Shown here piece by piece: positions 3,078 to 63,682 of a DNA stretch of 64,000 nucleotides. Origin of the DNA: Candidatus Pacearchaeota archaeon (GTDB lineage Archaea; Nanobdellota; Nanobdellia; Pacearchaeales; GW2011-AR1); contig JAAOYJ010000003.1 in the NCBI GenBank assembly GCA_018221285.1, forward strand, positions 14,768-78,767, in the 5' to 3' direction. Under the pieces are notes generated by a model. It made no database searches, was not told where the DNA came from, and worked only from the letters and a program-made list of their open reading frames with translations. Positions within the stretch are counted from its first letter, which is position 1. Each line of letters opens with the position of its first letter. Position numbers and translations under genes: made by a program.

Positions 3078-3175
3078 TTGCTCACTCGTAAAACTCGCTC
3101 GATTGATATAAGTAATTAACAAAAATAACTAAATAGTTACCCAACATATTATGCGAAGCTATCCTATTAACAACT
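3078..3175. repeat. Dispersed ~100-bp structured intergenic element, copy 1 (family A)
   Basis: Colinear with 9308-9410: ttgctca...aagta.ytaac.aaaaataac...agttac.caa...ttatgcgaagyta..ctattaac.act. Confidence 0.65.
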
Positions 3176-3239
3176 TCTTTCTAACCAAAAACACTCTCTC
3201 GTTTGACTGACTGCGTTCGAGGCAAGCGAATGGAAGTTT

Positions 3240-9300: not shown

Positions 9301-9307
9301 TTCTGAA

Positions 9308-9410
9308 TTGCTCATTCTCTTCGAGAATTCGGGATAAAAAGTAGCTAACTAAAAAATAACAATTTAAGAGTTACTCAATTGTGTTATGCGAAGTTAATCT
9401 ATTAACTACT
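9308..9410. repeat. Dispersed ~100-bp structured intergenic element, copy 2 (family A)
   Basis: Colinear similarity to 3078-3175; followed by a GC hairpin gcgcgtcagcgc and gggagggtgggaggg. Confidence 0.65.
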
Positions 9411-9491
9411 CCGCGCGTCAGCGCGTACGGGAGGGTGGGAGGGACAAAGTTGAGCAGGTAAATTTTTATATTGTTCTTTTCTTTGAATTTC

Positions 9492-43100: not shown

Positions 43101-44654
43101 ATGCCTGATAAATTTCTACAAAATATAAAACCAAGAGAATATCAACAAAAGATTTTCGAAAGTTGTATTAAAAATAACTGCTTGGTTGTGCTTCCAACAG
43201 GATTAGGTAAAACATTAATCGCATTAATGCTAACCATCGAAAGAATGAAACAACATCTTGGAGAAAAAGTCGTTATGTTAGCTCCTACAAAACCCTTGGC
43301 AGAACAACACCTAAACTATTTTAAAAAATATCTTCCTGAACTCTTCGCTGACATGCAGTTATTCACTGGTATGGTCAAGGCAGAAAAGCGGCAAGAGATC
43401 TGGAAAACCGCTGACATAATTTTCTCAACTCCGCAGTGCGTTGCAAATGACCTCAAAAAGAATCTCTACTCTCTAGAAAATGTCTGCCTATTAATAGAAG
43501 ATGAAGCGCACAGATGCGTTAAAAATTATGATTATAATTTCATAGCAAAAAAATACCAATCACAGGCCGCCAATCCAAGAATATTAGGGCTTACAGCCTC
43601 TCCAGGAAGTGATGAAAAAAGAATCAAACAAATTTGTAGAAACCTTTTCATAAAAGATGTTGAATTGAGGACAAGGGAAAGCGACGACGTGAAAGACTAT
43701 CTCCAAGAGTTAGAATTCGAAAAAATCGTTGTAGACTTTCCTCCAGAATTTGAAGAGATACGACAAGTACTCAAAAAATTATTCGATGGCTATGTTGAAG
43801 AATTAAAACGTAGAAGAGTTCTCTACACTTACCCTTCTAAAACCGGATTAATACTTCTTCAAAAAAAGATGGGCGCAACTCTTGCAAGAGGTGGAAAGAA
43901 TTTCAATTATATGTTAGGTTTAAGTGCCTGCGCACAAGCTATTAAACTTCAACACGCGCTTGAACTTTTGGAAACCCAAACCCTAACAAGTTTTAACAAG
44001 TATCTAAAAAACTTATTTAACCAAGCAGCAAAAAAGCAAAGCAAAGGAGTTGTCAAACTTGTTGCAAAACCAGAATTCAATTTTATCTACACCTCTACAA
44101 ACGAACTCCTTGCTAAAGAAGTTGAACATCCAAAACTTGAGAGGTTGATTGAAATAATAAAAGATGAAAAAAGGAAAAATGATAATGTTAAAATGATTGT
44201 TTTTACACAATTCAGAGATACAGCGACGACAATTCATAAAAAACTTAAAGAACTAAAAAATATAAAATCAAAGGTTTTTGTGGGGCAAGCAAAAAAAGCA
44301 GACACCGGGCTAAGCCAAAAAGAACAAAAGAAAATTCTACAGGAATTCTCAGACGGAGAAATCGACATAATCCTTTCAACTTCAATAGGAGAAGAAGGAC
44401 TAGATATCCCAGAAGTAAATTCTGTAATCTTCTACGAGCCAATTCCATCAGCAATAAGATCTATTCAAAGAGCTGGAAGAACTGCAAGATTAATGAAAGG
44501 TAAACTCATAATTCTTATAACTAAAAAAACACGTGACGAAACATTTTTCTATGTCTCAAAAGCAAGAGAAAAAAGCATGCACAAAGCAATAGGTTCAATC
44601 AAGGATGAACTCACAAGAAATAATCTGTTGGAATTCCAGGATGAATTAAAATGA
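43101..44654 (+). CDS. hef: Hef/FANCM-like SF2 helicase (helicase part of a split Hef)
   Basis: PREYQ, PTGLGKT, DEAH, LTASPG, EEGLDIP, QRAGRTAR. Confidence 0.92.
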   Translation: MPDKFLQNIKPREYQQKIFESCIKNNCLVVLPTGLGKTLIALMLTIERMKQHLGEKVVMLAPTKPLAEQHLNYFKKYLPELFADMQLFTGMVKAEKRQEIWKTADIIFSTPQCVANDLKKNLYSLENVCLLIEDEAHRCVKNYDYNFIAKKYQSQAANPRILGLTASPGSDEKRIKQICRNLFIKDVELRTRESDDVKDYLQELEFEKIVVDFPPEFEEIRQVLKKLFDGYVEELKRRRVLYTYPSKTGLILLQKKMGATLARGGKNFNYMLGLSACAQAIKLQHALELLETQTLTSFNKYLKNLFNQAAKKQSKGVVKLVAKPEFNFIYTSTNELLAKEVEHPKLERLIEIIKDEKRKNDNVKMIVFTQFRDTATTIHKKLKELKNIKSKVFVGQAKKADTGLSQKEQKKILQEFSDGEIDIILSTSIGEEGLDIPEVNSVIFYEPIPSAIRSIQRAGRTARLMKGKLIILITKKTRDETFFYVSKAREKSMHKAIGSIKDELTRNNLLEFQDELK

Positions 44655-45061
44655 ATGTATGGGGGATGAAAGACGTAGCATTATTTGATCCTTGGACATT
44701 CATCCACATTCTCGGAGGAATCGTATTGGGAACTATTTTATTTTCAATATTAAAAAATCATGAAAAAACAGATAGAATAAAGATAAGTATATTAGTTATT
44801 TTAATTATGGCATATTCCTGGGAAGCCACTGAAATGCTTATAGAAATTGGTTTTCTTGGAGAAACATTAAAACATTGGTTTTGGGGAGTTGAATATCTTC
44901 CTAATAGAATCATAATTGATCCTTTAGCAACTATGGGAGGATTTTTCTTATTCTTAAAAAAACCAAATTTAGGAAAGATTTCTTTATTTCTTTATCTAAT
45001 ATGGTGGATAGTACATATTTTTATATTCCCAAATGCAGTTTATCTACAACAAATAATTTAA
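44651..45061 (+). CDS. Membrane protein with FDPWT..H...WE..E motif (DUF2585/DUF2238-like)
   Basis: Four TM helices with H, WE and D residues; overlaps the hef stop. Confidence 0.6.
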   Translation: MNVWGMKDVALFDPWTFIHILGGIVLGTILFSILKNHEKTDRIKISILVILIMAYSWEATEMLIEIGFLGETLKHWFWGVEYLPNRIIIDPLATMGGFFLFLKKPNLGKISLFLYLIWWIVHIFIFPNAVYLQQII

Positions 45062-45062
45062 A

Positions 45063-45827
45063 ATGACTCTCCTACATGACATCTTCCAAAAGAAACAATC
45101 AAAACCCAAAAAAGATATTCCAAAACAAAAAATCATCGTCGACTATCGAGAGAAAAGCTGTTTAGTTCCATCAGAACTAGTCAGCCTCGGATTTGAAGTT
45201 GAATTTAAAGAACTAAAAGTTGGAGATTATATTGTCAAAGAAACTGCAATTGAAAGAAAAACTGTCTCCGATTTTATCTCATCCATGATAAACAAACGTC
45301 TTCTAAACCAACTTGAAGAACTTCAACAATATGAAAATCGATTATTAATCATCGAGGGAATTGCTGAACAAGATTTATACAATGATAACCAAAAAATGAT
45401 TTCGCGAGACTATCTAATGTCTGTGCCGAAGGCGCTGACGGGTGGGAGGGCACGGGCCCCGAGCGAAAATGGCAATGGTGTAAACGCAAATGCAATAAGA
45501 GGTTTTCTATTATCAATACTTCTCAAACACAAAGTCCCAATCATATTCACAAAAGATTACAAAGATACTGCAAAGTTTATCTCAATACTTTCAAAAAAAC
45601 AAGATAAAGAAGTTTCACTAAATGCGAAAAAGAAATCTCTAAATAAAAAAGAGCAACTCCAATTCATCATCGAAGGTTTTCCAGGAATCGGCCCAACAAC
45701 TGCAAAAAAACTTTTAGAAGAATTCAAATCAATCAAAAACATAACCAACGCCTCCGAAGAAGATTTAACAAAAGTTCTTGGAAAAAAAGCAGAGATAATC
45801 AAAAGGTTAGTTGAAGAGAAATACTAA
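45063..45827 (+). CDS. ERCC4/XPF nuclease with HhH (nuclease part of a split Hef), carrying an in-frame 72-bp repeat insertion
   Basis: VDYRE, GDY, ERKT..DF, FPGIG HhH. Confidence 0.92.
   Translation: MTLLHDIFQKKQSKPKKDIPKQKIIVDYREKSCLVPSELVSLGFEVEFKELKVGDYIVKETAIERKTVSDFISSMINKRLLNQLEELQQYENRLLIIEGIAEQDLYNDNQKMISRDYLMSVPKALTGGRARAPSENGNGVNANAIRGFLLSILLKHKVPIIFTKDYKDTAKFISILSKKQDKEVSLNAKKKSLNKKEQLQFIIEGFPGIGPTTAKKLLEEFKSIKNITNASEEDLTKVLGKKAEIIKRLVEEKY
45399..45470 (+). mobile_element. MITE/REP-like 72-bp element, intragenic in-frame copy (family B)
   Basis: 61/72 nt ungapped identity (manual count) to 55296-55367; ends atttcgc...gcgaaaat. Confidence 0.8.
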
Positions 45828-52735: not shown

Positions 52736-55213
52736 TTATCTATTATAATAATCTAAAAAAGCATTCCCAGTTATCTCTGCCCCTTCACTTGAACTTGATT
52801 CCGAAGTTTCTGTTGTTGTCTCAACCACATTATCAGAACTCCCTCCATCAGAAGTCCCATCAGTTTCTACAACATTATTTTCTGTTCCTCCAGAATCACC
52901 TTCTGTATTTTCTACAACATTATTATCATAATCTTCCTCATAATGTTCTGGTTCCTTATCTTCATAAAAACATTCACACCTTGTTCCACCATCTACACAA
53001 TCTGTTCTTGAAGCTCCAGGACAATCATCACTACACCCATCTTTACATTCACTCTCATCGTAAAATCCTTTCTCGGGGCCCCCATAATATTGTCCAGGTT
53101 CTCCACACAGACAATCTCCTCCTTCAAAAGTCCAAGGTCTTCCTTGATTCTCACAATTTTGAATACACGCCTTTTCCATCACTCTCCAATCTCCTTCTTG
53201 CTCTCTTCTCATCTCCCCTTCTTCCATCTTCCTCCTCTTCTGCTCAGGCCACTCTTCCCTCATAAAAATTTCACAATCAGGAGGCCAGTGTATTCTATTC
53301 TCCTTACATTGCCATGTTATCTCTCCTTGACCTTCTCCAGGCCCAGGACCATAATGGTCATCAAATTCATTTCCTTTATTATCATAACAATCTAATCTTT
53401 CCATAGAGTCTTCAATACTCATACAATCAGGACCTCTTCCTTGTCCAGAGAGTTCATACTTTCCAGGCCCTCCCCATGCATCAATAATCATTTTTCTACA
53501 TTGTCTTCCATCTAGGCCTTTACATTGTTTAGGTGTTCCTACATTTTCCATTATCCATTCTATGCATTCTTCATTAGAGAATTCAGCCGCATTACATTGG
53601 GAAGGCCTATCTTCTTTTCTTCCACTAGGGCCTCTAAAACTATCCATAAACCTCTTACATTCATCAGGGTCTGTTATTCCTTTTTTAGCGCATTGCGGAG
53701 CATGTTGCTCCATCATTATTTCATCACAAGCTCTTTCAAAAACTCTCTTATCAACCTCTCCTTCTTCTGCAAGTTTTACTAATGTTGCCCTACATTCTAA
53801 AGGAGCATTATTTTTAACCATCACAACCGCGCATTTATTACGTGTTGTAGCTCCTACCTCAACACATTCCCTTGGCATATGCATATCATATTGAGCCCCA
53901 TCCATATCATCTTCTAAATCTTCCCAAATTGGTTGTAGCCAATCAGGCAATTCAGGCATCTTTAAATTTTCTAAATCATCACAAGCTGTTTCATCTCCTT
54001 CAACATCACAAGCAGTAGCTAACGGAGCCGCCTTAGAACAAGCAATTGAAAAATCATAAAAAGGAATCGCTTCACAATTACAATCTTGCCCAGAAGTCTT
54101 AAAACATTTTTTCATAATATTTACAAATTCCCTAGCTGTTTTTTCTTGCCCTGCACTTAAATCCTTATGAAGTTTTTTTTGCCATTGAGGAGCGTCTTCT
54201 CCTGCCCTACACATTTTATCATATTCCATTGGATCTAATTCAGCTAATTGTTCACATAAAGCTTTAATCTTGCTAGAAATTTCAGCAGCAGTAGCAATTG
54301 AATGTTCTTTACTCATAACTTCCCTAACAAATTTTCCTCTTTCTCCTTCAGGAAGTTTATCTCTAATATCTTTCATAGTCGCTCTAATTGCAGCAGCACT
54401 TCTTTTTGCTTCTTCTTTTCTTTCAGGATCTATTTCATGCTCAAGTTCTTCTGCTAATTTCATATAGTCTTCCAAAGCAACTTTAGCACCTTCGATATCT
54501 CCTGCTTCAACCATTGCTTTAATTTCTGCAATTCTCTCTTCCTTAACATCTAATTGATCACCAAATTTATCAAAAAATTTATCTATAAAATAAAAAGTAT
54601 CTCCAGGGGTAGTTCCAGCTTCTTGTTTAAGTTCCTCGCCTTTATATTCTTCAAAAAACTCATCACCTTCATACCTACAACCTTCCCAAAAAACTACTGT
54701 AGGGCAAACCTCTCCACTTGTGCCCCCCAGGGTATCACAATCAGGGCCTCTAAAAATACTTTCGCAAGCATCTATTAATTCACATTGGTCTTGAGCCATA
54801 TCCTCACATCTATAATCTTTATCCTCATCAAAATCATCACTTATGCCCGCAAGAGTATCAAAACCTTTAACAATACATTTGCCATTTTCAACACCACACA
54901 TCGGTTTTCCGTTAGTCGGAGGTTGACACATCATTGCTGCAACTTTCTCTGCAGGAAAACATCCATCCCCACAATCTAAACATTTCAAATCTTCTTTCCT
55001 TTTCTCTTCAAAACCATAAAGTTCTTTACACTCAATAATACAAGGGCTTCTATCCACCTCTTCTGCGATATTCGCCTTACATTTAGTTACGCAATTATCC
55101 AAATCCATTGTCCTCTTACTAATAGTCTCAGCATTTGGAGCAGGAACAAGAGGCATAGATAAAAAACTAATTAAAAATACACAAACTAGTAAAAATTCCC
55201 AACCCCTTTTCAT
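52736..55213 (-). CDS. Secreted Cys-rich protein with a DUF5667-like helical domain
   Basis: Signal peptide, AGTTPGDTFYFID...EERIAE, many Cys-helical repeats, acidic tail ending ITGNAFLDYY. Confidence 0.75.
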   Translation of the reverse strand: MKRGWEFLLVCVFLISFLSMPLVPAPNAETISKRTMDLDNCVTKCKANIAEEVDRSPCIIECKELYGFEEKRKEDLKCLDCGDGCFPAEKVAAMMCQPPTNGKPMCGVENGKCIVKGFDTLAGISDDFDEDKDYRCEDMAQDQCELIDACESIFRGPDCDTLGGTSGEVCPTVVFWEGCRYEGDEFFEEYKGEELKQEAGTTPGDTFYFIDKFFDKFGDQLDVKEERIAEIKAMVEAGDIEGAKVALEDYMKLAEELEHEIDPERKEEAKRSAAAIRATMKDIRDKLPEGERGKFVREVMSKEHSIATAAEISSKIKALCEQLAELDPMEYDKMCRAGEDAPQWQKKLHKDLSAGQEKTAREFVNIMKKCFKTSGQDCNCEAIPFYDFSIACSKAAPLATACDVEGDETACDDLENLKMPELPDWLQPIWEDLEDDMDGAQYDMHMPRECVEVGATTRNKCAVVMVKNNAPLECRATLVKLAEEGEVDKRVFERACDEIMMEQHAPQCAKKGITDPDECKRFMDSFRGPSGRKEDRPSQCNAAEFSNEECIEWIMENVGTPKQCKGLDGRQCRKMIIDAWGGPGKYELSGQGRGPDCMSIEDSMERLDCYDNKGNEFDDHYGPGPGEGQGEITWQCKENRIHWPPDCEIFMREEWPEQKRRKMEEGEMRREQEGDWRVMEKACIQNCENQGRPWTFEGGDCLCGEPGQYYGGPEKGFYDESECKDGCSDDCPGASRTDCVDGGTRCECFYEDKEPEHYEEDYDNNVVENTEGDSGGTENNVVETDGTSDGGSSDNVVETTTETSESSSSEGAEITGNAFLDYYNR

Positions 55214-55292: not shown

Positions 55293-55369
55293 ACAATTTC
55301 GCGAGACTAACTATTGTCTGCGCCGAAGGCGCTGACGGGCGGGAGGGTAAGGGATTCGGGCGAAATTGT
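55293..55369 (+). mobile_element. MITE/REP-like element with perfect 10-bp terminal inverted repeats, intergenic copy (family B)
   Basis: acaatttcgc...gcgaaattgt; internal hairpins agac-N8-gtct and gcgcc-gaa-ggcgc. Confidence 0.8.
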
Positions 55370-55390
55370 AAAAATCCTCCAATTTACTAA

Positions 55391-55442
55391 TACATACATA
55401 GTAAGTAACGTTTATAAGGAGAATTACATAAATAGTAAGTAA
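55391..55442 (+). promoter_or_regulatory. Promoter with two 18-bp palindromic operator-like repeats flanking the TATA box
   Basis: tacatacatagtaagtaa (55391-55408) and tacataaatagtaagtaa (55425-55442), 17/18 identical; tttataag at 55411-55418. Confidence 0.65.
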
Positions 55443-58400
55443 TGGGAAGGACTCGATTAGCCAAAGCTACAGCCGTAGAACTATCAAGGATAATACATGA
55501 AGCAAAACAAAGGAAAGACGTTCTTGTTAGGTATTTGGAGAGATTGAACAAGCATCATTCTGAAGGGAAAATTTCTTATGATAGATATGTTGAGATACTC
55601 CACAAACATACAGATGGCAGAACCATTTCTGAATGGATTGAACACTATGAAGACTACATAAGAGACTTTGAAAAAAAATTAAGAAAAGAAAAGAAAACTA
55701 CCCTCATAAAACAATTAACATTAGGGTTATTTTTTATTTCTTTGATTTTTATTATTCTCAACTTAAACCTAGATATTACCCCTAAATTTGTGGGGTTCAC
55801 AATCCAAGAGCAAGAATTTTCACAAAACTTAGATTTAACCTTTGAAGAATCCGCCGAGTATGAATGGCAATTAGAAAACTTAGGGGAATTAACTTCAGTT
55901 AAATTATCAGGAATTATTGAAGGAGAAGGTAAAGTAAAAATTTACCTCGACGATTTACTAATTATTGATAGTTCAAAAATCAAAAAATCAAAGATAACTG
56001 GCGAAGTAATTAGTGATGATGAATCCAAACCAGTTGAATCATATTCAGAAGAAGTAAACGAGGCTCTTGAAGAAGATTCGAGTCCTTCCCAGGAGCCTCC
56101 ACCTTCTGAAACAAATGAAATTATTGAAGAAGATAGCACAGAAAATATTAATCAAACCGAAGAGGAAGAAGAAATTATTGGAACACCTTCACAAAATGAA
56201 TCATATTCAGAAACAGAAGAGGAGGTCATTGAAGAAGATTCGAGTCCTTCCCCAGATCAAGGTGACATCCTTGATCGCCCAAGCGATGAGCTTGGTGAAG
56301 AGGAGTCTCTACCTTCTGAAACCAAGAAAGAAAAAATAACAACAAGAACATTCAAAGATTCTTGCGAAGAAACTTGTGAATTAAACAACCTGAACAAAAC
56401 TTCATACACTCTAAAAATAGAAATCTCAAATGCAAAATTAAAAATCAGCGATATAAAATATACCATCCTTGGACAAATCCCTGCTGAAACCTCTGAAGAG
56501 AATATAACAGAACCAACCCCTAAAGAAAACGTCACAGAGATTCCTCTTCCTGAAAACGTCACAGAAAGAAACATAACTACCTCTAAAACCAATGTCTCCA
56601 CATTACAATACAAAGCAATAATCAACAAACCTACTAAATGGATTAAAACAATTAAGCGTAAGGAATCAGATCAACCCAACATCTCAATAGAACTTCCAAA
56701 AGAAGCTGAGAACATTTCAGTAAAAACTGGTGACGAAGTTCAACAAGCATTAGACGAACTCGAAGAATTCGATGAAACAATTGAACAAACTGACAGACAA
56801 AATTTTCTTTCAGGATCAATCACTGGAAATGTTGCTCTCGACATTAAACAAGAAAGGAGCATATTAACAAAACTATGGAACTGGCTAAAAAGCTTTACGA
56901 TCACAGGGAATGTTATTGGAGAGCAAGAATTGCAAAACGACATTACAGAAACTATTGACAAAAAAATAATTGATTTGGAAGAAATCATCAACCAAACTCA
57001 AACAACAGAGATCGCAGTCGAGTATTACACAGGGGGCCCAACAGCTATAGAGGAAAACATCAGCAACGGTAAAAGAGTTATTGTTTCAGGAGATGATGAA
57101 TTAAATTACACCGAGGTGCTAGCTTTCACAGAGATAGAAGAAAAATTTGAAGTGGGGCAAGAATCGAAAATTAAGGTTTATTGGAGAGAAGAAAACACAT
57201 ACATAAATTTCACAGCATATGATACCGACGACAACAACAAAATAGATTATGTAGAATGGATTGCTCCACATTTGAGCAACCAAACATTTGATATAATTAT
57301 TGAGATTATTAAAGCCGAGCATTTAGACAAAGACAAAGAATTTATCTCGGACATCTACAACGAAACATACCAATTAGATGATACTTGGAGTGAAGAAATT
57401 TCAAACAAACAGTATGTGAGAATAACTTTTGAGGTTCCACTAGACTCTTCAAGAGATATCACAATCTATCCAAGAATTACTAAAGGAAACCCAACAATAG
57501 AAGTTTATGAGGTTAATGGGACAGAACTAATCGCTGAATTCACAGATATCTTTTCAAATGAATACAATGAAGTTTTATTGACAAATCTAAATGGAACGCA
57601 AGATGTTTTTGATTTGAAAATTGTCGGAGGAAGTGTGGAGTTTGACCATATTGTTGATCCGGATGAATGGTCTGATACAGATTGGCCCTATCGAAAACAA
57701 ATAAATGTTTCAAACACTTATGGAGAAGATCTAATAGAATATCAAATAGAATTAATAATTGATACGGCAGCCCTTATTACTGCAGGAAAGCTGAATTCTA
57801 ATTGTAGTGATTTGAGATTCACTAATGCATCTGGAGGATTAATTTCCCATTATGTGGATGAAAATACTCGTATAGATTGTAATGAGAACGATACTCTAAT
57901 TTGGATACAAACAGACGTCTTAGTAAATAATGCCAACACGTCTTTTTACATGTATTACGGAAACTCTGGAGCGAGTTCGACTAGTAATGAGTTGGATGTT
58001 TTCAATTATACTACACCTACTCCTGTAATGGTGCCTGTAGGTACAAATAATGATGATGCAATAGAAGTAGTGAGTTATGCAGATGGAAACACAATTGAAA
58101 TGGGGGGATATTCTAATACACTTAGTGAAGGGGAAGTTGATACCGGTGTAGGTAGTCACTCTCAAAATACCTTATTAAATGTAACCCAACCCGTTGCAGC
58201 AATTTCTGATAGTACAGGAGATGCATTAGTGCCATTAAGCTTTGCTGGAACATTATTCTTACAGTATGGTGACAGAGCAGCAGGCACTACCACTTATGCC
58301 GCATATTCATTTGAAGATAATAACAAGGTTGCCGTACATACTGGGGGGTGGACTGAAGCAAGTAGTGTAATTGTGAACAAAGGTTCTGTTGGAACATTAA

Positions 58401-61400
58401 CAACTACTACTAGTGATGCCTTTATGATTAATTCAACTTATCCTGTAGTGATATTTAGACAAGAAGGAGGAAATGATAATATGGTATTTTATCCTGCTCA
58501 AACAGAATATTATGGCTGGGGAGGTAGGCGTATATATATGACAGCCTTAGAAGCTGATACTGGCATTACTTGTTATGACAGTCAAAACACCATGCCAGTA
58601 AGTATAAATATTGGTGCTGGTGGTCAGGGATCCTACACTAGTTGGGGTAGGGATAGTGCTGGAGAAGCGGCCTTCTGTAATAGTACTAAGATCTTTGGTG
58701 TTAACCAAGAAGCAGATGCAGATGGTAATGAGCAGACAGAATTCATAAATGAAAAAGAACTTGATAGAATCCACTTTTTACCTCAAGCTACAGGGACTAG
58801 TACAGATTTTTATGTATCTGTTATAGCTCCCACCCCAAGTACTAATTGTACTGTGACTCGTTCTGGAGCATTTGTTACAGATGCTGTTAGTGCAGCTTAT
58901 ACTTTTCCAAACCCTAACTTAATCTCGTTTACTTCTGGTTTGCAGGCAGGAGATAAAATAGATTGTAGTGCACCGGTTACAATAGCTTATGATGATGTTG
59001 ATGATGCTGGTGACGAGCATAATCTTTTCGGAATGAAAGCAAATAGGCGGTTTGTTTACCCAACACCGACTTACACAATTGCAGCAGAAGAAGAACCTCC
59101 AGCAGAAGACACAACCTACCCTCAATTCTCAAATTACTGGGACAACAACGCAACACTAGAAGAAAGTGGAACTGGTTTATTCAATGTAACAGTACTGAAT
59201 ACTAACGGAACTGTCTTGTTAGAAATTAACGGAACAAACATCACAGCAACAAATTATGCGGGAGACAATTATAATGCAAGCCATGCTTTTACAACTAACG
59301 ACACTTATCCTTACAAATGGCATTCATGGGGAAACGGTACAGATGAAAACTATAATATTTCTGTGACCAGAAGCTATACTGTTAATGGGACTGTCCCTGA
59401 CACAACTTATCCTTCAGTTACAATAATCTCTCCAACCGCTCAGAATTATGCGACAATATCAATAATATTCAATATAACAGCAACAGACGAAACTGGAATG
59501 GATACTTGTCTTTACTCCTTAGATGCAGGGGCAACCAATACAACAATGGGCAATTCATCAGCGACGTCATTCAATGCAACAAACTCCTCAATGGCTCAAG
59601 GCCTACATACAGTTAATTTCTATTGTAATGATACTTCAAATAATATAAACGACACAGAAAATGTGACTTTCCTTATTGATTCAATTTATCCATCATGGGA
59701 GAACAACAAAACAAATCTAACAACAACTACTACTCAAGGATCTTCAATTTATTTTAATATGACCTTAAACGAAACCAATCCAGCGAACTATACATTCAGC
59801 TGGTACAATGGAACAGCATGGGAGAACACAACAGGAAGCTACACTGATGGGGAGGAAGTTGAAGTGATTAAAACAATTAATATCAATGGGGGGCAGATTA
59901 ATTGGACTTGGTATTTCAATGATACTTCTGGAAATTCAAATCAAACAGATGTGTGGAGTATGACATTAGTGACTGTAGACACAACACCTCCTCAAATTCA
60001 ATTCGAAGATCCAACAAGAGCAGACGGAAACACAACAGCAGACACTTCAATTGAAATCAATGTCTCAATTACAGAATCTAATCTCGGCGAAGTAGTCTAC
60101 AATTGGAACGGAACAAACTTCACATTAATGAATAATAACTTAGTTCTCTTCATGAACTTTGATAATGTATCTGCTCTTGGAGAAAATGATACCTTAGTTG
60201 TTGATGCAAGCGCTTATGAAAACAATGGAATAGTAAACGGTGCTGTTGTAAACACAACTGGCAAATATAATGGCTGTTATTCTTTTAACGAAAACGATGC
60301 AATCAACGTAGGAAGTGATTCAAGTCTAGACATCACAAACGAAATCACAATTAGTGTCTGGATTAACTCTTTATCTCAAAATCAAGTAGCTGGAAATGTC
60401 AAAAGCTATGCAAAAATAGACAGCACTGACCTAGCCGGAGAGTTGGAGGCTTCAGATCATCTTGGTGTTGGTGTAGCAAATATTGGTGATTTGGATGATG
60501 ATGGAATAGTGGATATTGTTATTACAGCTAATCTAGATGATGATGGGGGCGACAAAAATGGGGCAGCATATATTGTATTTATGAATATAGATGGAACTGT
60601 AAAGGATTATCAAAAAATAAGTGAGACCTACGGAGGATTTACAGGAGATCTAGCAGGAGGTCGGGCTGGTTATGGTGTTGCAGGTATTGGAGATTTAGAC
60701 GAGGATGGTGTAGAAGATATTGCAGTTGGAGCTTTTGCAGATACTTCTCTTACAGGAGCTGTTTGGGTGCTATTTCTAAATACAAATGGAACGGTGAAAT
60801 CTTATAATAAAATTGATGATGCAAGTGTAGGTGGAGAGTTGGACGTAGGAGATATATTTGGTGGAGGTGTCATATATCTTGGAGATTTGGATGGGGATGG
60901 TGTGGGAGATATTGCTGTTGGAACTTTAAAAGATCATGATGGAGGCTCTGATAGAGGGGCTGTTTATATACTTTTCATGGATACGGATGGAACTGTAAAA
61001 GATTATCAAAAAATAAGTGATACCCGAGGAAATTTTACAGGAGGCTTAACTGACTTAGATGAGTTTGGTAGTGGGGGAAATAGTATTGGAGACTTGAATA
61101 ATGATGGTGTAGAAGATATCGCAATCGGGGCTAGGAAAGCTGACGATGGAGGAGCTAGTGCAGGAGAGGTTTGGGTACTATTTATGGATACAGACGGAAC
61201 TGTCAAGTCTGAAGCTAAAATTAATGATACAAGTGTGGGAGGGGGGTTGGACGCAGGTGATCAATTTGGTAATAGAGTAGGAGGTATTGGAGATTTGGAT
61301 GGGGATGGTATAGAAGATATTATTGTTGGGGCTAGTTTCGGTGATGATGTGAAAGATGATGCTGGAGAGATTTGGGTATTATTTCTGGATACAGACGGAA

Positions 61401-63682
61401 GTGTGAAATCATTTTCTAAGATAAATGATACTAGTATGGGGGGAGGACTAGATACAGGGGGTTTGTTTGGAACATCAGTCGCAAATATAGGAGATTTAGA
61501 TGGGGATGGGGTAACAGATTTTATTGCTGGAGCCATGAAAGATGATACAGGATTCACTCAAGCGGGAGCCGCTTGGATAGTTTTTTTGGAGGATGGTTTC
61601 GCATCCATCCTAAATAAACAAAATGCGTATGAAATTCGAGCAAACGAAACTGCTGTAAAAGGAATGACTAATGGAAGTTCTATAATCGCCCAAATTAATG
61701 CAGGGTGGAACCACGTTGTGCTCACGTCCAATAGTACAAACAAATCACTCTATGTTAACGGGGTTTTATCTTCTACAGGACCAAGTGGTGCAATCGCTTC
61801 AAACACATACGACCTTCTTATCGGAAATGACTACAACGGAAGCATAGATGAATTAATGATTTACAACACTTCGCTAAACTCCGCCGAAGCCTATCAATTA
61901 TATATTTCCAATCTAAAAAAATACGACACTGACAAATGGACTTTATATGTTAACCAATCTAAGAACGCGACAACTGGTTTAGAAAATGGGAAATATACTT
62001 ATCAGACATTTGTAGCAGATACTTCAAGTAATTGGAATCAAACAGAAGAGAGGACAGTTACAATAGGTGATGGAGCAGCAGGAGACACAGCCCCACAAAT
62101 AACTTCTGTATTCAACGACTCAATGACTGATGTATCAAGCGGACCAAATGAAGGACCTTCTCCAACTTATGTAATTATTAATTTCACGGCTTATGATGCA
62201 AACGGAGCCTCAGACTTAAATGACAGCACAGCGAGAATAAACTTTACAAGAACAGGGGAAACAACAAGAGAAAACTTAAGTTGTTCGAGATACGCAACAG
62301 GAGGAAATTATGCAAACTATACTTGTAATGTAACAATGTGGTGGTTCGACGGTGCAGGGATTTGGAACATCACAGCCCACATTAAAGACAACCAAAGCAA
62401 CTCAGCCACAAATGCGTCCCAAACTTTCTCTGTTGGTTCAAGGACAGCATTTGTCATGGGCCCGTCTTCCTTAACTTGGGCTGGACTAAGCCCTGGAGCA
62501 ACAAACCAAACTTCAAACAATGATCCTCTTACTCTAAACAATACAGGAAATGATATTATCACTGCTTCCAATATAGAAATTAATGCTACAAATCTCCTCG
62601 GTGAAGAAAACAGCAGTTATGGTTTATGGGCTGGGAATTTTTCAGTTAGTTATACAGACGCTGGCGCTTGTGCAGGAACCGCCATGAGCTCTTCAGAATA
62701 CACAAACATAACTGCTGCAAATCTAACAATAGGAAACTACACAGTCGGGGACGGAACAGCACAGGAAGAATTATATTTTTGTATAAAGGTTATCGGAAGC
62801 GAACTTACAGACCAAGCTTACTCAACATCTGGACAAGGAGCATGGACAATAAGAATCTTACTCGTTGCTTTAACCACAAGAAGAAGAAAGAAAACTAAAC
62901 ACAAAAACCAAACAGAGCTTTTCATCCCTTCAACAATCTTCACAAAAGAACTTGGAGCCTTGGAAGCAATCAGCAAATATATGAAAGAAAATTTGGAAAT
63001 GAGTTATCATGAAATTGGTGAATTGTTGGAAAGGGATGAAAGAACTATCTGGACATCATATAACAAAGCTGTTGAGAAACAAAAAGCAAAATTAAAGGTA
63101 AAGGATACAGAGTTCTTCCTACCAATCTCAATCTTTAGTGATAAACTAACAATCCTCGAGGCTGTTATTGTTTATCTAAAACAAAAAGGTTTAAGGTATG
63201 CTGAGATTGCCGAACTAGTTGATAGAGACCAAAGAAATGTTTGGGCAACTTATTCTAAGGCAAAGACAAAACTAGAAGAAAAAGAGATTACAAAAGTAGT
63301 TGAAATAAAATTAGAGATAAAGATTCCTCAAACAATCTTCTCCAAACAACTTGGAGCATTGGAAGCGATTAGTAAATATATGAAGGAAAACTTGGAAATG
63401 AGTTATCATGAAATTGGTGAATTACTAAAAAGAGATGAAAGAACAATCTGGACTTCATATAACAAAGCTATTGAAAAACAAAAAGCAAAGATAAAAATTA
63501 AGGATGTTGAGGTTTTCCTTCCAATCTCAATCTTCAACAAAGAGCTAACAGTTCTAGAAGCAGTTGTGGTTTATCTAAAACAAGCAGGATTGAAATACAG
63601 TAAAATAGCTGAGCTAGTTGATAGAGATCAGAGAAATGTTTGGGCAACTTATTCAAAAGCTAAAGAAAAGGCAATTACATAA
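55442..63682 (+). CDS. Giant surface protein (2746 aa): N-terminal TM, DUF2341, Ig-like domains, LamG split by FG-GAP repeats, C-terminal tandem HTH domains
   Basis: W.YRK.I...DLRFT...YMYYGN (DUF2341), GDLDGDG..D..VGA (FG-GAP), GSIDELMIYNTSL (LamG), four LEA...Y.K....Y.EI.EL..RD.R..W..Y.KA units. Confidence 0.88.
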   Translation: MGRTRLAKATAVELSRIIHEAKQRKDVLVRYLERLNKHHSEGKISYDRYVEILHKHTDGRTISEWIEHYEDYIRDFEKKLRKEKKTTLIKQLTLGLFFISLIFIILNLNLDITPKFVGFTIQEQEFSQNLDLTFEESAEYEWQLENLGELTSVKLSGIIEGEGKVKIYLDDLLIIDSSKIKKSKITGEVISDDESKPVESYSEEVNEALEEDSSPSQEPPPSETNEIIEEDSTENINQTEEEEEIIGTPSQNESYSETEEEVIEEDSSPSPDQGDILDRPSDELGEEESLPSETKKEKITTRTFKDSCEETCELNNLNKTSYTLKIEISNAKLKISDIKYTILGQIPAETSEENITEPTPKENVTEIPLPENVTERNITTSKTNVSTLQYKAIINKPTKWIKTIKRKESDQPNISIELPKEAENISVKTGDEVQQALDELEEFDETIEQTDRQNFLSGSITGNVALDIKQERSILTKLWNWLKSFTITGNVIGEQELQNDITETIDKKIIDLEEIINQTQTTEIAVEYYTGGPTAIEENISNGKRVIVSGDDELNYTEVLAFTEIEEKFEVGQESKIKVYWREENTYINFTAYDTDDNNKIDYVEWIAPHLSNQTFDIIIEIIKAEHLDKDKEFISDIYNETYQLDDTWSEEISNKQYVRITFEVPLDSSRDITIYPRITKGNPTIEVYEVNGTELIAEFTDIFSNEYNEVLLTNLNGTQDVFDLKIVGGSVEFDHIVDPDEWSDTDWPYRKQINVSNTYGEDLIEYQIELIIDTAALITAGKLNSNCSDLRFTNASGGLISHYVDENTRIDCNENDTLIWIQTDVLVNNANTSFYMYYGNSGASSTSNELDVFNYTTPTPVMVPVGTNNDDAIEVVSYADGNTIEMGGYSNTLSEGEVDTGVGSHSQNTLLNVTQPVAAISDSTGDALVPLSFAGTLFLQYGDRAAGTTTYAAYSFEDNNKVAVHTGGWTEASSVIVNKGSVGTLTTTTSDAFMINSTYPVVIFRQEGGNDNMVFYPAQTEYYGWGGRRIYMTALEADTGITCYDSQNTMPVSINIGAGGQGSYTSWGRDSAGEAAFCNSTKIFGVNQEADADGNEQTEFINEKELDRIHFLPQATGTSTDFYVSVIAPTPSTNCTVTRSGAFVTDAVSAAYTFPNPNLISFTSGLQAGDKIDCSAPVTIAYDDVDDAGDEHNLFGMKANRRFVYPTPTYTIAAEEEPPAEDTTYPQFSNYWDNNATLEESGTGLFNVTVLNTNGTVLLEINGTNITATNYAGDNYNASHAFTTNDTYPYKWHSWGNGTDENYNISVTRSYTVNGTVPDTTYPSVTIISPTAQNYATISIIFNITATDETGMDTCLYSLDAGATNTTMGNSSATSFNATNSSMAQGLHTVNFYCNDTSNNINDTENVTFLIDSIYPSWENNKTNLTTTTTQGSSIYFNMTLNETNPANYTFSWYNGTAWENTTGSYTDGEEVEVIKTININGGQINWTWYFNDTSGNSNQTDVWSMTLVTVDTTPPQIQFEDPTRADGNTTADTSIEINVSITESNLGEVVYNWNGTNFTLMNNNLVLFMNFDNVSALGENDTLVVDASAYENNGIVNGAVVNTTGKYNGCYSFNENDAINVGSDSSLDITNEITISVWINSLSQNQVAGNVKSYAKIDSTDLAGELEASDHLGVGVANIGDLDDDGIVDIVITANLDDDGGDKNGAAYIVFMNIDGTVKDYQKISETYGGFTGDLAGGRAGYGVAGIGDLDEDGVEDIAVGAFADTSLTGAVWVLFLNTNGTVKSYNKIDDASVGGELDVGDIFGGGVIYLGDLDGDGVGDIAVGTLKDHDGGSDRGAVYILFMDTDGTVKDYQKISDTRGNFTGGLTDLDEFGSGGNSIGDLNNDGVEDIAIGARKADDGGASAGEVWVLFMDTDGTVKSEAKINDTSVGGGLDAGDQFGNRVGGIGDLDGDGIEDIIVGASFGDDVKDDAGEIWVLFLDTDGSVKSFSKINDTSMGGGLDTGGLFGTSVANIGDLDGDGVTDFIAGAMKDDTGFTQAGAAWIVFLEDGFASILNKQNAYEIRANETAVKGMTNGSSIIAQINAGWNHVVLTSNSTNKSLYVNGVLSSTGPSGAIASNTYDLLIGNDYNGSIDELMIYNTSLNSAEAYQLYISNLKKYDTDKWTLYVNQSKNATTGLENGKYTYQTFVADTSSNWNQTEERTVTIGDGAAGDTAPQITSVFNDSMTDVSSGPNEGPSPTYVIINFTAYDANGASDLNDSTARINFTRTGETTRENLSCSRYATGGNYANYTCNVTMWWFDGAGIWNITAHIKDNQSNSATNASQTFSVGSRTAFVMGPSSLTWAGLSPGATNQTSNNDPLTLNNTGNDIITASNIEINATNLLGEENSSYGLWAGNFSVSYTDAGACAGTAMSSSEYTNITAANLTIGNYTVGDGTAQEELYFCIKVIGSELTDQAYSTSGQGAWTIRILLVALTTRRRKKTKHKNQTELFIPSTIFTKELGALEAISKYMKENLEMSYHEIGELLERDERTIWTSYNKAVEKQKAKLKVKDTEFFLPISIFSDKLTILEAVIVYLKQKGLRYAEIAELVDRDQRNVWATYSKAKTKLEEKEITKVVEIKLEIKIPQTIFSKQLGALEAISKYMKENLEMSYHEIGELLKRDERTIWTSYNKAIEKQKAKIKIKDVEVFLPISIFNKELTVLEAVVVYLKQAGLKYSKIAELVDRDQRNVWATYSKAKEKAIT
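62096..62194 (+). repeat. Domain-encoding segment duplicated in the downstream gene (63892-63990)
   Basis: 86/99 nt identical (manual count); second copy is cut by the window end. Confidence 0.85.

What the first reader, a model, noticed from the sequence alone, without database searches (positions are those of the whole stretch)
45399..45470. Small mobile palindromic element inserted in frame into the XPF nuclease gene
Seen: a GC-rich 72-bp segment (24 codons, ISRDYLMSVPKALTGGRARAPSEN) is 61/72 identical to an intergenic element at 55296-55367 that has perfect 10-bp terminal inverted repeats. The intergenic copy has TAA at codon 5 where the coding copy has TAT. Known: Rickettsia palindromic elements create peptide inserts this way. 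Inference: a DPANN element family that colonises protein loops; alternatively the terminal stem could be removed as an archaeal mRNA intron.
Basis: partly seen in the sequence, partly recalled or inferred. Interest (0 to 1): 0.82.

Follow-up and report, generated by a model that had tools for sequence, protein, structure and literature searches.

The report
Small structured repeat inside archaeal XPF gene
A 72-base GC-rich repeat with a closing stem, a hairpin and a run of G-triplets sits in frame inside the XPF DNA-repair nuclease gene of a tiny DPANN archaeon and, like the palindromic elements of Rickettsia, seems to be selfish DNA that is read through as an extra protein loop.

Summary
Window 45399-45470 and 55296-55367 are 61 of 72 identical. 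The first lies in frame in an ERCC4/XPF gene, and 17 of 18 family orthologs lack any insert there.

It belongs to a sparse repeat family: 4 copies in this genome, and matches in 8 of 151 genomes of the taxonomic family. Copies lie in intergenic DNA and in frame in unrelated housekeeping genes (XPF, GatA-like amidase, a SAM methyltransferase, an ELP3-like radical-SAM protein, Trm5/TYW2, PheRS beta). They occur in both orientations and in three reading frames.

The family is defined by structure rather than sequence:
- a closing stem whose sequence changes completely between lineages but stays complementary
- a covarying hairpin
- a run of four G-triplets, kept in 15 of 18 copies

Best reading: an RPE-like, non-autonomous mobile or selfish DNA element that is kept in the mRNA and translated. 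Every coding copy is stop-free in the host frame. The XPF copy alone has TAT where five sister copies have TAA.

Not supported:
- splicing as an archaeal intron: no bulge-helix-bulge motif, and both orientations occur
- an IS200/IS605 parent

How it moves is unknown. RNA and protein evidence could not be obtained.

Verdict: a new variant of a known kind, of moderate to high interest.

The parts
45399..45470 (+). Element copy A: 72 nt, 24 codons, in frame and in sense inside the XPF gene. The closing stem is partly degraded. The host frame is kept open by TAT where the sister copies have TAA.
   Evidence: Covariance-model hit at 45393-45477, 92.2 bits, E 2.8e-25.
45419..45439 (+). Hairpin P2 of copy A (GTCTGTGCCGAAGGCGCTGAC; one U-G wobble on this strand).
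45440..45456 (+). G-triplet run of copy A (GGGTGGGAGGGCACGGG), a canonical G-quadruplex-type motif.
   Evidence: G000:C42:60207.
45063..45827 (+). Host gene: stand-alone XPF/Hef-type nuclease (ERCC4 plus two helix-hairpin-helix motifs). Residues of the ERCC4 nuclease motif, as I recall it, can be read in the translation (VGDYIV...IERKTVSDF).
55293..55370 (+). Element copy B: intergenic, best preserved. 10-bp perfect closing stem (55293-55302 / 55361-55370), hairpin 55316-55336, G-run 55337-55353. It lies between the divergent genes 52736-55213 (-) and 55442-63682 (+).
   Evidence: Covariance-model hit of 104.7 bits.

Best explanation
The segment is one copy of a small (about 72-85 nt), GC-rich, non-autonomous repeat element that has spread at the DNA level in a few lineages of Pacearchaeota-like DPANN archaea.

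Anatomy, 5' to 3' on the G-rich strand:
1. A closing-stem arm (7-15 nt).
2. An A/T-rich spacer.
3. An optional GC hairpin.
4. Four G-triplets separated by 1-3 bases.
5. The other closing-stem arm.

Shown: copies lie both between genes and inside unrelated housekeeping genes. Wherever one lies in a gene it adds a whole number of codons and has no stop in the host frame.

Inferred: insertions land anywhere, and only those in permissive surface loops, in an open frame, survive. The XPF copy is therefore kept in the mRNA and translated as a 24-residue loop between the last strand of the nuclease core and the following helix. XPF remains functional.

Inferred, weaker: mobility depends on a folded single strand (stem plus hairpin plus G-tract) that is recognised by shape. 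It does not depend on sequence-specific terminal repeats bound by a DDE transposase. The enzyme is unidentified.
For: Insertion, not a conserved loop:
- XPF: 17 of 18 family orthologs have no insert at the site. One (G015) has an unrelated one.
- GatA-like amidase: 12 of 13 relatives lack the insert.
- SAM methyltransferase: G210 and G412 carry exactly 24 extra residues that 9 of 9 aligned orthologs lack.
- ELP3-like protein: 2 of 2 aligned orthologs lack it.
- Trm5: present in L145 and G351, absent in G000.

DNA-level family:
- Copies occur in both orientations. The G-rich strand is sense in XPF, the methyltransferase and PheRS beta, and antisense in GatA, ELP3 and Trm5.
- Three different reading registers are used.
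- 4 copies in G000 and 6 hits in G001.
- 8 of 151 family genomes have a hit at E<=0.001.
- 2 of 401 genomes of the order match the strict core pattern.
- 2 metagenome contigs and 0 viral contigs match.

Translation rather than removal:
- All coding copies are open in the host frame, while a typical copy is open in only 2-3 of 6 frames.
- In the XPF register the five other copies of the same subtype have TAA at codon 5, and only the XPF copy has TAT.
- A relative's XPF (P0002) carries a colinear but diverged version of the same insert. It is 3 residues shorter, has lost the G-run, and is still in frame.

Structure-defined:
- On 18 copies, 91.0% of pair cells are paired, against 69.7% in shuffles (0 of 500 shuffles reach it) and 34-50% when the partner column is slid.
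- 16 of 18 pairs change on both sides.
- Closing stems in different lineages are unrelated in sequence but perfectly complementary over 9-15 bp.
- 15 of 18 copies keep four G-triplets while the loops between them vary (read by eye).
- The whole genome has only 13 such motifs against 0.55 expected, and 4 of them are in this family.
Against: - There is no RNA or protein evidence. The only holder runs are probably DNA.
- No target-site duplication could be defined. The flanks are A-rich and ambiguous: AAAATG lies on both sides of the XPF copy and AAAAT at the methyltransferase copy, but nothing comparable flanks copy B.
- No autonomous parent or cognate enzyme was found.
- Copy number is low and copies are 85-92% alike, so recent activity is not shown.
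- The pair counts come from an alignment fitted to the model's structure, and copies are related. Both inflate the statistics (tool caveat).
- The FtsY-linker copy in G000 cannot be shown to be an insertion.
- The GC-rich insert at the same GatA site in G001 is not demonstrably homologous (score 10 against shuffles 12.3 +/- 3.9).
- In the XPF tree the window's protein is sister to one without the insert (96/93). One gain therefore needs a later precise loss, or there were two gains.
Confidence: 0.72

Rival explanations
1. The hairpin plus G-triplet module is a functional host signal (for example a DNA or RNA structure bound by a cellular factor, or acting in regulation or replication). It is spread by recombination. 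The copies in genes are tolerated by-products, not selfish insertions.
For: - The G-run is the best conserved part, with variable loops, which suggests selection on a structure.
- A similar GC hairpin plus short-loop G-run also occurs in copies of a 40-locus intergenic repeat family of the same genome. Examples are window 9429-9443 and C9:73627.
- Copy B lies between two divergent genes.
- G-T pairs outnumber A-C mismatches 20 to 8 on the G-rich strand, a weak hint that one strand folds.
Against: - The element is sparse and patchy: 8 of 151 family genomes.
- It occurs in both orientations inside genes.
- In the old coding copy of P0002 the G-run has decayed and the gene is still in frame.
- No known RNA family matches.
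- A host signal would be expected at conserved positions, not in XPF or GatA loops.
Confidence: 0.15
2. The element is an intron removed from the mRNA, as an archaeal bulge-helix-bulge intron cut by the tRNA splicing endonuclease or by self-cleavage. The protein then lacks the 24 residues.
For: - A closing stem brings the two exon ends together.
- Stem pairing is maintained by compensatory changes.
- DPANN archaea are known, from recall, to have splicing endonucleases of relaxed specificity.
Against: - A scan for helix / 3-nt bulge / 4-bp helix / 3-nt bulge / helix at the ends of five coding copies found nothing above shuffle level. XPF gave one relaxed hit, which removes 67 nt and is out of frame. 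Shuffles gave 0.5-1.8 such hits.
- Three host genes carry the element in antisense, where the RNA would be C-rich.
- All coding copies are stop-free and a multiple of three, which an intron does not need.
- The XPF copy has lost most of its closing stem.
- P0002's decayed copy is still in frame.
- No Rfam ribozyme or intron family matches.
Confidence: 0.04
3. It is a classical miniature inverted-repeat transposable element (MITE). A DDE transposase recognising the terminal inverted repeats mobilises it in trans, or an IS200/IS605 Y1 transposase moves it as a palindrome-associated element.
For: - It has terminal inverted repeats, is dispersed and non-coding, and is small.
- A different repeat family ('family X') in the same genome shares the same terminal motif, as families of MITEs served by one transposase do.
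- G000 has an rve-type IS on contig C5.
- G001 has two Y1_Tnp genes.
Against: - The terminal repeats are the least conserved part across lineages and the core the most. This is the reverse of a transposase-bound TIR.
- No clear target duplication was found.
- The IS on C5 has unrelated terminal repeats. The element's terminus occurs there no more often than chance: 2 matches against 1.56 expected.
- The element is not similar to the flanks of the Y1 transposase genes.
- Y1_Tnp is found in 47 of 151 family genomes but in only 2 of the 8 element-positive ones, and not in G000, assuming both calls drew the same sample.
- No IS110 family transposase was found in 4 of 4 genomes.
Confidence: 0.08

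Closest known systems
Rickettsia palindromic elements (RPEs)
   Same: - Interspersed repeats found both in intergenic DNA and inside protein-coding genes.
- Inserted in frame in unrelated housekeeping or metabolic genes, so that the host protein gains a peptide.
- Palindromic ends.
- No transposase of their own.
- Lineage-specific proliferation in a reduced genome.
- Even a PheT insert has a parallel.
Source: passages read in PMC10969869 and PMC1779305. Ogata et al. 2000 was seen only as a citation there.
   Different: - Domain Archaea rather than Alphaproteobacteria.
- 72-85 nt rather than 100-150 bp.
- Very low copy number (3-6 per genome against tens to hundreds).
- A covarying closing stem and a conserved G-triplet run, which I do not know from RPEs (recall).
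- No sequence comparison with RPEs was made.
Prokaryotic MITEs (including the archaeal ones of Sulfolobus and haloarchaea)
   Same: Small, non-coding, dispersed, with terminal inverted repeats. Intragenic MITEs can make in-frame fusions (review PMC10969869, passages).
   Different: - No parent IS.
- No demonstrable target duplication.
- Terminal repeats are not conserved in sequence between lineages, while the core is nearly invariant.
REP / IS200-IS605-derived palindrome elements handled by Y1 (HUH) transposases
   Same: - Hairpin-centred.
- Apparently strand-specific structure.
- No obvious target duplication.
- Y1 transposases are common in this archaeal family: 47 of 151 genomes.
   Different: - No Y1 transposase in G000 (82% complete).
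- No association across genomes.
- No similarity to the flanks of the transposase genes.
- REPs are extragenic by definition (recall).
Archaeal bulge-helix-bulge introns in protein genes (such as cbf5 of Crenarchaeota; recall)
   Same: A short structured insert in an archaeal protein gene whose ends can pair.
   Different: No bulge-helix-bulge motif. It is in frame and stop-free, occurs in both orientations, and also occurs in intergenic DNA.

Membership tests
RPE-like in-frame palindromic repeats (functional class) | Dispersed repeat present both in intergenic and in protein-coding DNA | tested here: met
   Coding: XPF, GatA-like amidase, methyltransferase, ELP3-like, Trm5, PheRS beta. Intergenic: copy B, several G001 and G412 copies, L146, G148, G250, G016.
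RPE-like in-frame palindromic repeats (functional class) | Insertion preserves the host reading frame and is absent from orthologs | tested here: met
   XPF: 17 of 18 lack it. GatA: 12 of 13. Methyltransferase: 9 of 9, with exactly 24 codons added. ELP3: 2 of 2.
RPE-like in-frame palindromic repeats (functional class) | Insert is retained in the mRNA and translated | not testable with these tools
   No RNA holder was found and the laid runs are probably DNA. Only indirect support: stop-free copies, the TAA-to-TAT difference, and P0002's decayed in-frame copy.
Rickettsia palindromic elements proper (RPE-1 to RPE-10) | Sequence homology to an RPE family; 100-150 bp | tested here: not met
   Length is 72-85 nt against the 100-150 bp stated in PMC1779305. 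Homology was not tested, as no RPE sequence was at hand. It is not filed as a member.
Classical MITE | Terminal inverted repeats | tested here: met
   7-15 bp closing stems in nearly all full copies.
Classical MITE | Target-site duplication of fixed length | tested here: inconclusive
   A-rich flanks allow AAAATG (XPF) or AAAAT (methyltransferase). Copies B and C98 show none.
Classical MITE | Autonomous IS with the same termini in the genome or in relatives | tested here: not met
   The only IS-like contig (C5: rve above its cut-off, DDE_Tnp_1 below it) has unrelated repeats. No IS110 family match. Only the 3 known copies have both termini. G000 is only 81.8% complete.
IS200/IS605-derived or REP/RAYT-type element | Cognate Y1 (HUH) transposase whose gene is flanked by the same hairpins | tested here: not met
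   PF01797: 0 in G000, 2 in G001, a fragment in G210. The element shows no significant similarity to their flanks. Only 2 of 8 element-positive genomes have the family, against 47 of 151 overall.
Archaeal bulge-helix-bulge intron | Two 3-nt bulges separated by a 4-bp helix at the exon-intron junctions | tested here: not met
   My own scan of 5 coding copies found no strict motif at the ends. Relaxed hits were at shuffle level.
Any described RNA family (Rfam 15) or tRNA | Match to a covariance model or a tRNA fold | tested here: not met
   No match overlaps either copy even at E<=10. ARAGORN finds no tRNA in the window.

The most novel reading that the evidence does not exclude
These are a new class of archaeal mobile element that is recognised by shape: a stem-closed hairpin plus G-quadruplex formed on one strand of single-stranded DNA (or RNA). 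An as yet unknown enzyme moves them, and cassettes with shared termini can replace each other at the same protein loops. That would explain three things: why the closing stem covaries freely while the G-triplets are fixed, why no transposase or target duplication is seen, and why different families occupy the identical site in XPF, GatA and Trm5.
Probability: 0.2. Interest if true: 0.8.

Novelty: new variant of a known kind. Interest (0 to 1): 0.6.

Why it matters
In-frame colonisation of essential genes by selfish repeats is best known from Rickettsia. Finding the same behaviour in reduced DPANN archaeal genomes would suggest that this is a recurrent outcome of genome reduction under weak selection. 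It would also be a route by which new protein loops arise in archaea.

It matters for annotation and phylogenomics of DPANN genomes. GC-rich 20-50 residue inserts in marker proteins are repeat DNA, not lineage signatures, and they break assemblies.

The architecture is unusual: a freely covarying closing stem around a fixed G-triplet run. It offers a concrete, testable case for a G-quadruplex having a role in the life of a prokaryotic repeat element.

My full-text searches found no paper joining DPANN lineage names with 'miniature inverted-repeat'. One search returned 543 papers holding at least 2 of the 5 terms, and the 12 listed all had 0 occurrences of 'miniature inverted-repeat'. One search listed no paper describing a G-quadruplex-bearing mobile element in archaea, and one search found no occurrence of 'mobile' in the main text of PMC7565180. 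These searches cover only the held library.

Tried and rejected
- **RNA evidence.** One search listed no holder on record as RNA. The two runs laid are probably DNA contigs and show neither a joint nor an indel at either copy.
- **Structure prediction of XPF with its insert.** The only structural placement is therefore the sequence alignment to Aeropyrum XPF 2bgw: query residues 22-107 and 149-250 align, and the insert falls in between.
- **Rfam and ARAGORN.** Nothing at the element.
- **Single-sequence folding.** Not significant.
- **Bulge-helix-bulge scan.** Negative.
- **Genome-collection pattern scan.** The 17-base pattern gave 86 stretches, 80 of them listed. I looked at the 7 archaeal ones. 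Three are real (L063, L130, L083) and four are chance hits in GC-rich genomes. The 73 bacterial ones were not examined.
- **Homology of the G001 GatA insert to the element.** Not significant.
- **FtsY-linker copy as an insertion.** Not demonstrable.
- **tRNA-like, C/D-box, H/ACA, K-turn, hammerhead and integron attC readings.** Considered by eye against recalled consensus features and dropped, because the defining boxes are missing. These were not formal tests.
- **Strand asymmetry of wobble pairs (20 G-T against 8 A-C).** Treated only as a weak hint, because the covariance-model alignment favours G-U pairs.
- **Target duplication.** Left undecided.

Full report
**1. The observation**

The two segments are in the window as described.
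- Ungapped, 61 of 72 bases agree.
- The coding copy (45399-45470) reads ISRDYLMSVPKALTGGRARAPSEN. The intergenic copy (55296-55367) has TAA at codon 5 of that register.
- An 18-base core occurs twice in the window and never in 100 shuffles.
- The host ORF 45063-45827 (254 aa) is an ERCC4 nuclease with helix-hairpin-helix motifs.
- The genome held for this window (G000: 863 kb, 43 contigs, 81.8% complete) has 34.6% G+C. The element has 52-58%.
- The perfect 10-bp inverted repeat of the intergenic copy is at 55293-55302 / 55361-55370, slightly wider than the coordinates given.

**2. It is an insertion**

*XPF in genome relatives.* In 40 of 41 related genomes XPF is found. In most of them the match breaks into query residues ~4-110 and ~134-254. 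An alignment of G000 with 18 orthologs of the same family shows no insert in 17 and an unrelated, AT-rich one in G015. Against Aeropyrum XPF (2bgw) the protein aligns as residues 22-107 and 149-250, so the insert lies between two conserved blocks.

*XPF in the large protein collection* (2725 hits, 120 listed). I aligned the query with 26 of these hits. They were the 22 that are 249 aa or longer plus four short close ones; the other 93 listed hits were not aligned. Results:
- P0002 carries a colinear, diverged version of the same insert.
- P0003, P0004, P0006 and P0007 have none.
- P0030 has a few residues.
- 20 others have different inserts at exactly this loop.

*Tree.* A tree built without the insert columns groups (P0004,(P0002,(P0001,P0003))) with support 99/93. 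The window's protein is sister to the insert-free P0003 (96/93). So the insert was either gained once and later lost precisely, or gained twice. This is a single short gene, so I hold the conclusion loosely.

**3. It is a family**

- BLAST in G000 finds a third copy on contig C9, in the opposite orientation. It lies in frame inside a GatA-like amidase (Pfam Amidase 5.8e-109).
- 12 of 13 relatives lack that insert. The same-genus G001 has a different GC-rich 15-residue insert at the same site, whose homology to the element is not demonstrable.
- DNA and pattern searches found clear copies only in G000 and G001 among 41 relatives, in 2 of 401 genomes of the order, in one further genome record and two metagenome contigs, and in no viral contig.
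- A covariance model built from six copies then found diverged members: a fourth copy in G000 (C42:12012-12090, outside the window), more in G001 and G412, and hits in 8 of 151 genomes sampled from the family.

**4. Where the copies lie**

In frame inside ORFs with clear Pfam identity:

| Host gene | Genome or locus | Orientation of G-rich strand | Empty-site check |
|---|---|---|---|
| XPF | G000 | sense | 17 of 18 orthologs lack it |
| GatA-like amidase | G000 | antisense | 12 of 13 lack it |
| class I SAM methyltransferase | G210, G412 (orthologous) | sense | exactly 24 codons; 9 of 9 aligned orthologs lack it |
| ELP3-like radical-SAM protein | G001 | antisense | 2 of 2 aligned orthologs lack it |
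| Trm5/TYW2 | L145, G351 | antisense | G000 lacks it |
| PheRS beta | G412 | sense | orthologs not checked |

Uncertain cases:
- FtsY linker in G000 and G250, where insertion is not demonstrable.
- A weak hit (E 0.96) in the tail of a PEP-utilising enzyme.

Intergenic or in no long ORF: copy B, three copies in G001, two in G412, and L146, G148, G250 C29 and G016.

**5. Read through, not removed**

- A typical copy is open in only two or three of its six frames, yet every coding copy is open in its host's frame.
- In the register used by XPF, the five other copies of the same subtype all have TAA at codon 5. Only the XPF copy has TAT.
- P0002's version has lost three residues and the G-run but is still in frame.
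- Three hosts carry the element in antisense, which no RNA-level excision signal would survive.
- A scan for bulge-helix-bulge motifs at the ends of five coding copies gave nothing above shuffles. The one relaxed hit in XPF would remove 67 nt.

Direct RNA or protein evidence could not be had.

**6. Anatomy**

*Closing stem.* It differs completely between lineages but stays complementary. Examples:
- 8-10 bp in G000.
- A doubly compensated variant in G001.
- 9 bp in L083.
- 11 bp in L146.
- 14 bp in G148.
- 15 bp in G016.

*Hairpin.* It also covaries. The GC stem is replaced by other complementary pairs in G001 C27:1502, G412 C23, G351, G148 and G250. In G250 the loop changes from GAA to TTC.

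*Pair statistics on 18 copies*:
- 91.0% of cells pair, against 69.7% in shuffles (0 of 500 shuffles reach it) and 34-50% after sliding the partner.
- 16 of 18 pairs change on both sides.
- The alignment was fitted to the model and the copies are related, so these figures are generous.

*G-run.* Four G-triplets with 1-3 base loops are kept in 15 of 18 copies while the loop letters vary (counted by eye). Some copies lack the hairpin but keep the stem and the G-run. G000 as a whole has 13 such motifs against 0.55 expected. Four belong to this family. Five more, with 1-base loops, lie in or beside copies of a 40-locus intergenic repeat, two of them with a GC hairpin directly upstream.

*Strand.* G-T pairs outnumber A-C mismatches 20 to 8 on the G-rich strand, a weak hint that this strand is the one that folds.

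**7. How it moves is open**

- No IS200/IS605 TnpA or TnpB in G000. G001 has two TnpA genes, but their flanks do not resemble the element.
- Across the family sample, TnpA is in 47 of 151 genomes but in only 2 of the 8 with the element, if both calls drew the same sample.
- G000 has one IS-like 3-kb contig with an rve integrase. Its terminal repeats are unrelated.
- No IS110 family match. Tyrosine recombinases are present in all four genomes, as expected for XerA-like genes.
- A target duplication cannot be decided, because the flanks are A-rich.
- The core is invariant while the termini are free but paired. This is the opposite of a transposase-bound inverted repeat, which is why I favour recognition of a folded single strand. 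That is inference.

**8. Context**

The genome holds 72 families of short dispersed repeats. Most are intergenic, but several GC-rich ones lie inside ORFs.

Different families occupy the same protein sites in different lineages:
- XPF: this element, 'family X', and G015's insert.
- GatA: this element and G001's insert.
- Trm5: this element in L145 and G351, and a fam4-like insert in G001.

Family X has a copy in G000 with the same terminal motif as this element. Two explanations are possible. Selection may leave only permissive loops, or elements with shared termini may replace one another. I cannot tell which.

**9. Comparison with what is known**

The behaviour matches Rickettsia palindromic elements as described in the passages I read:
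- Review PMC10969869.
- PMC1779305, which gives 100-150 bp, both intergenic and coding locations, and a PheT insert.

It is not a member of those families. The size differs, the domain differs, and no homology test was made. Archaeal MITEs are listed in that review for Sulfolobus, haloarchaea and Desulfurococcus, without in-frame cases.

My searches found no paper on such elements in DPANN, and none on G-quadruplex-bearing mobile elements in archaea. They cover only the held library, and supplements were not consulted.

**10. Verdict**

The intron and IS200/IS605 readings are not supported. It is a new variant of a known kind (RPE-like in-frame repeats). The unusual part is its structure-defined architecture, with a conserved G-triplet run and an unknown mobilisation mechanism.

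Noticed in passing
G000 contigs C27:6723-6773, C30:21370-21436, C36:16975-17035, C36:20366-20413, C42:150966-151033, C42:159589-159633, C42:272887-272932 (outside the window): A second GC-rich hairpin repeat ('fam4'), 45-68 nt and 50% G+C. 5 of its 7 copies lie inside ORFs of 150 aa or more; in four of these the repeat is read in one of two registers, giving peptides such as RRSAYPKLRNEGAK. A similar peptide sits in G001's Trm5 at the site where L145 and G351 carry the element studied here.
   Followed up: partly
G000:C42:226948-227095, C9:94020-94074 and 6 more loci; L063 and L145: A third repeat family ('fam3'), about 100-150 nt. It encodes a roughly 45-50 residue insert (GSKLT.SSFSLKK...) in Trm5 of G000, G001 and L145, and in the ELP3-like protein of G001. 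That ELP3-like protein carries three separate inserts relative to G003 and G006.
   Followed up: partly
XPF homologs P0005, P0012, P0022 and 17 others; G000:C9 about 100707-100887: 'Family X': a different insert at the same XPF loop in 20 of the 26 homologs I aligned. It is read in two frames (peptides containing GKSKKT). One copy lies at the 3' end of a G000 gene and has the same terminal motif as the element studied here.
   Followed up: partly
window 3102-3184 and 9307-9450; G-run at window 9429-9443: Two copies of a 40-locus, about 91-nt intergenic repeat ('fam1'). The second is followed by a GC hairpin and the run GGGAGGGTGGGAGGG, the same hairpin-plus-G-run module as in the element.
   Followed up: partly
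window 43101-45827: The Hef-type helicase (43101-44654) and the XPF nuclease (45063-45827) are separate genes. A 136-aa ORF (44651-45061) with no Pfam match lies between them; its sequence looks hydrophobic, judged by eye.
   Followed up: no
window 45574-45698: One contig of run X1 (depth 3.6, 31 letters on the shorter side) joins 45574 to 45698. This skips 123 nt (41 codons) of the XPF linker and helix-hairpin-helix region. It may be a strain variant or an assembly artefact.
   Followed up: no
G000 contig C5 (3010 bp; L193): An IS-like contig: an rve-type integrase ORF (128-1021) flanked by 20-nt imperfect inverted repeats, plus a 409-aa ORF with a weak DDE_Tnp_1 match. It is unrelated to the element.
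   Followed up: yes
G000 contigs C40 vs C42:125307-132940, C19 vs C34 and C24, C7 vs C16 and C37: Kilobase-scale matches at 66-83% identity between contigs of the same bin. These are either paralogous regions or a second related strain in the bin (contamination is given as 5.77%).
   Followed up: no
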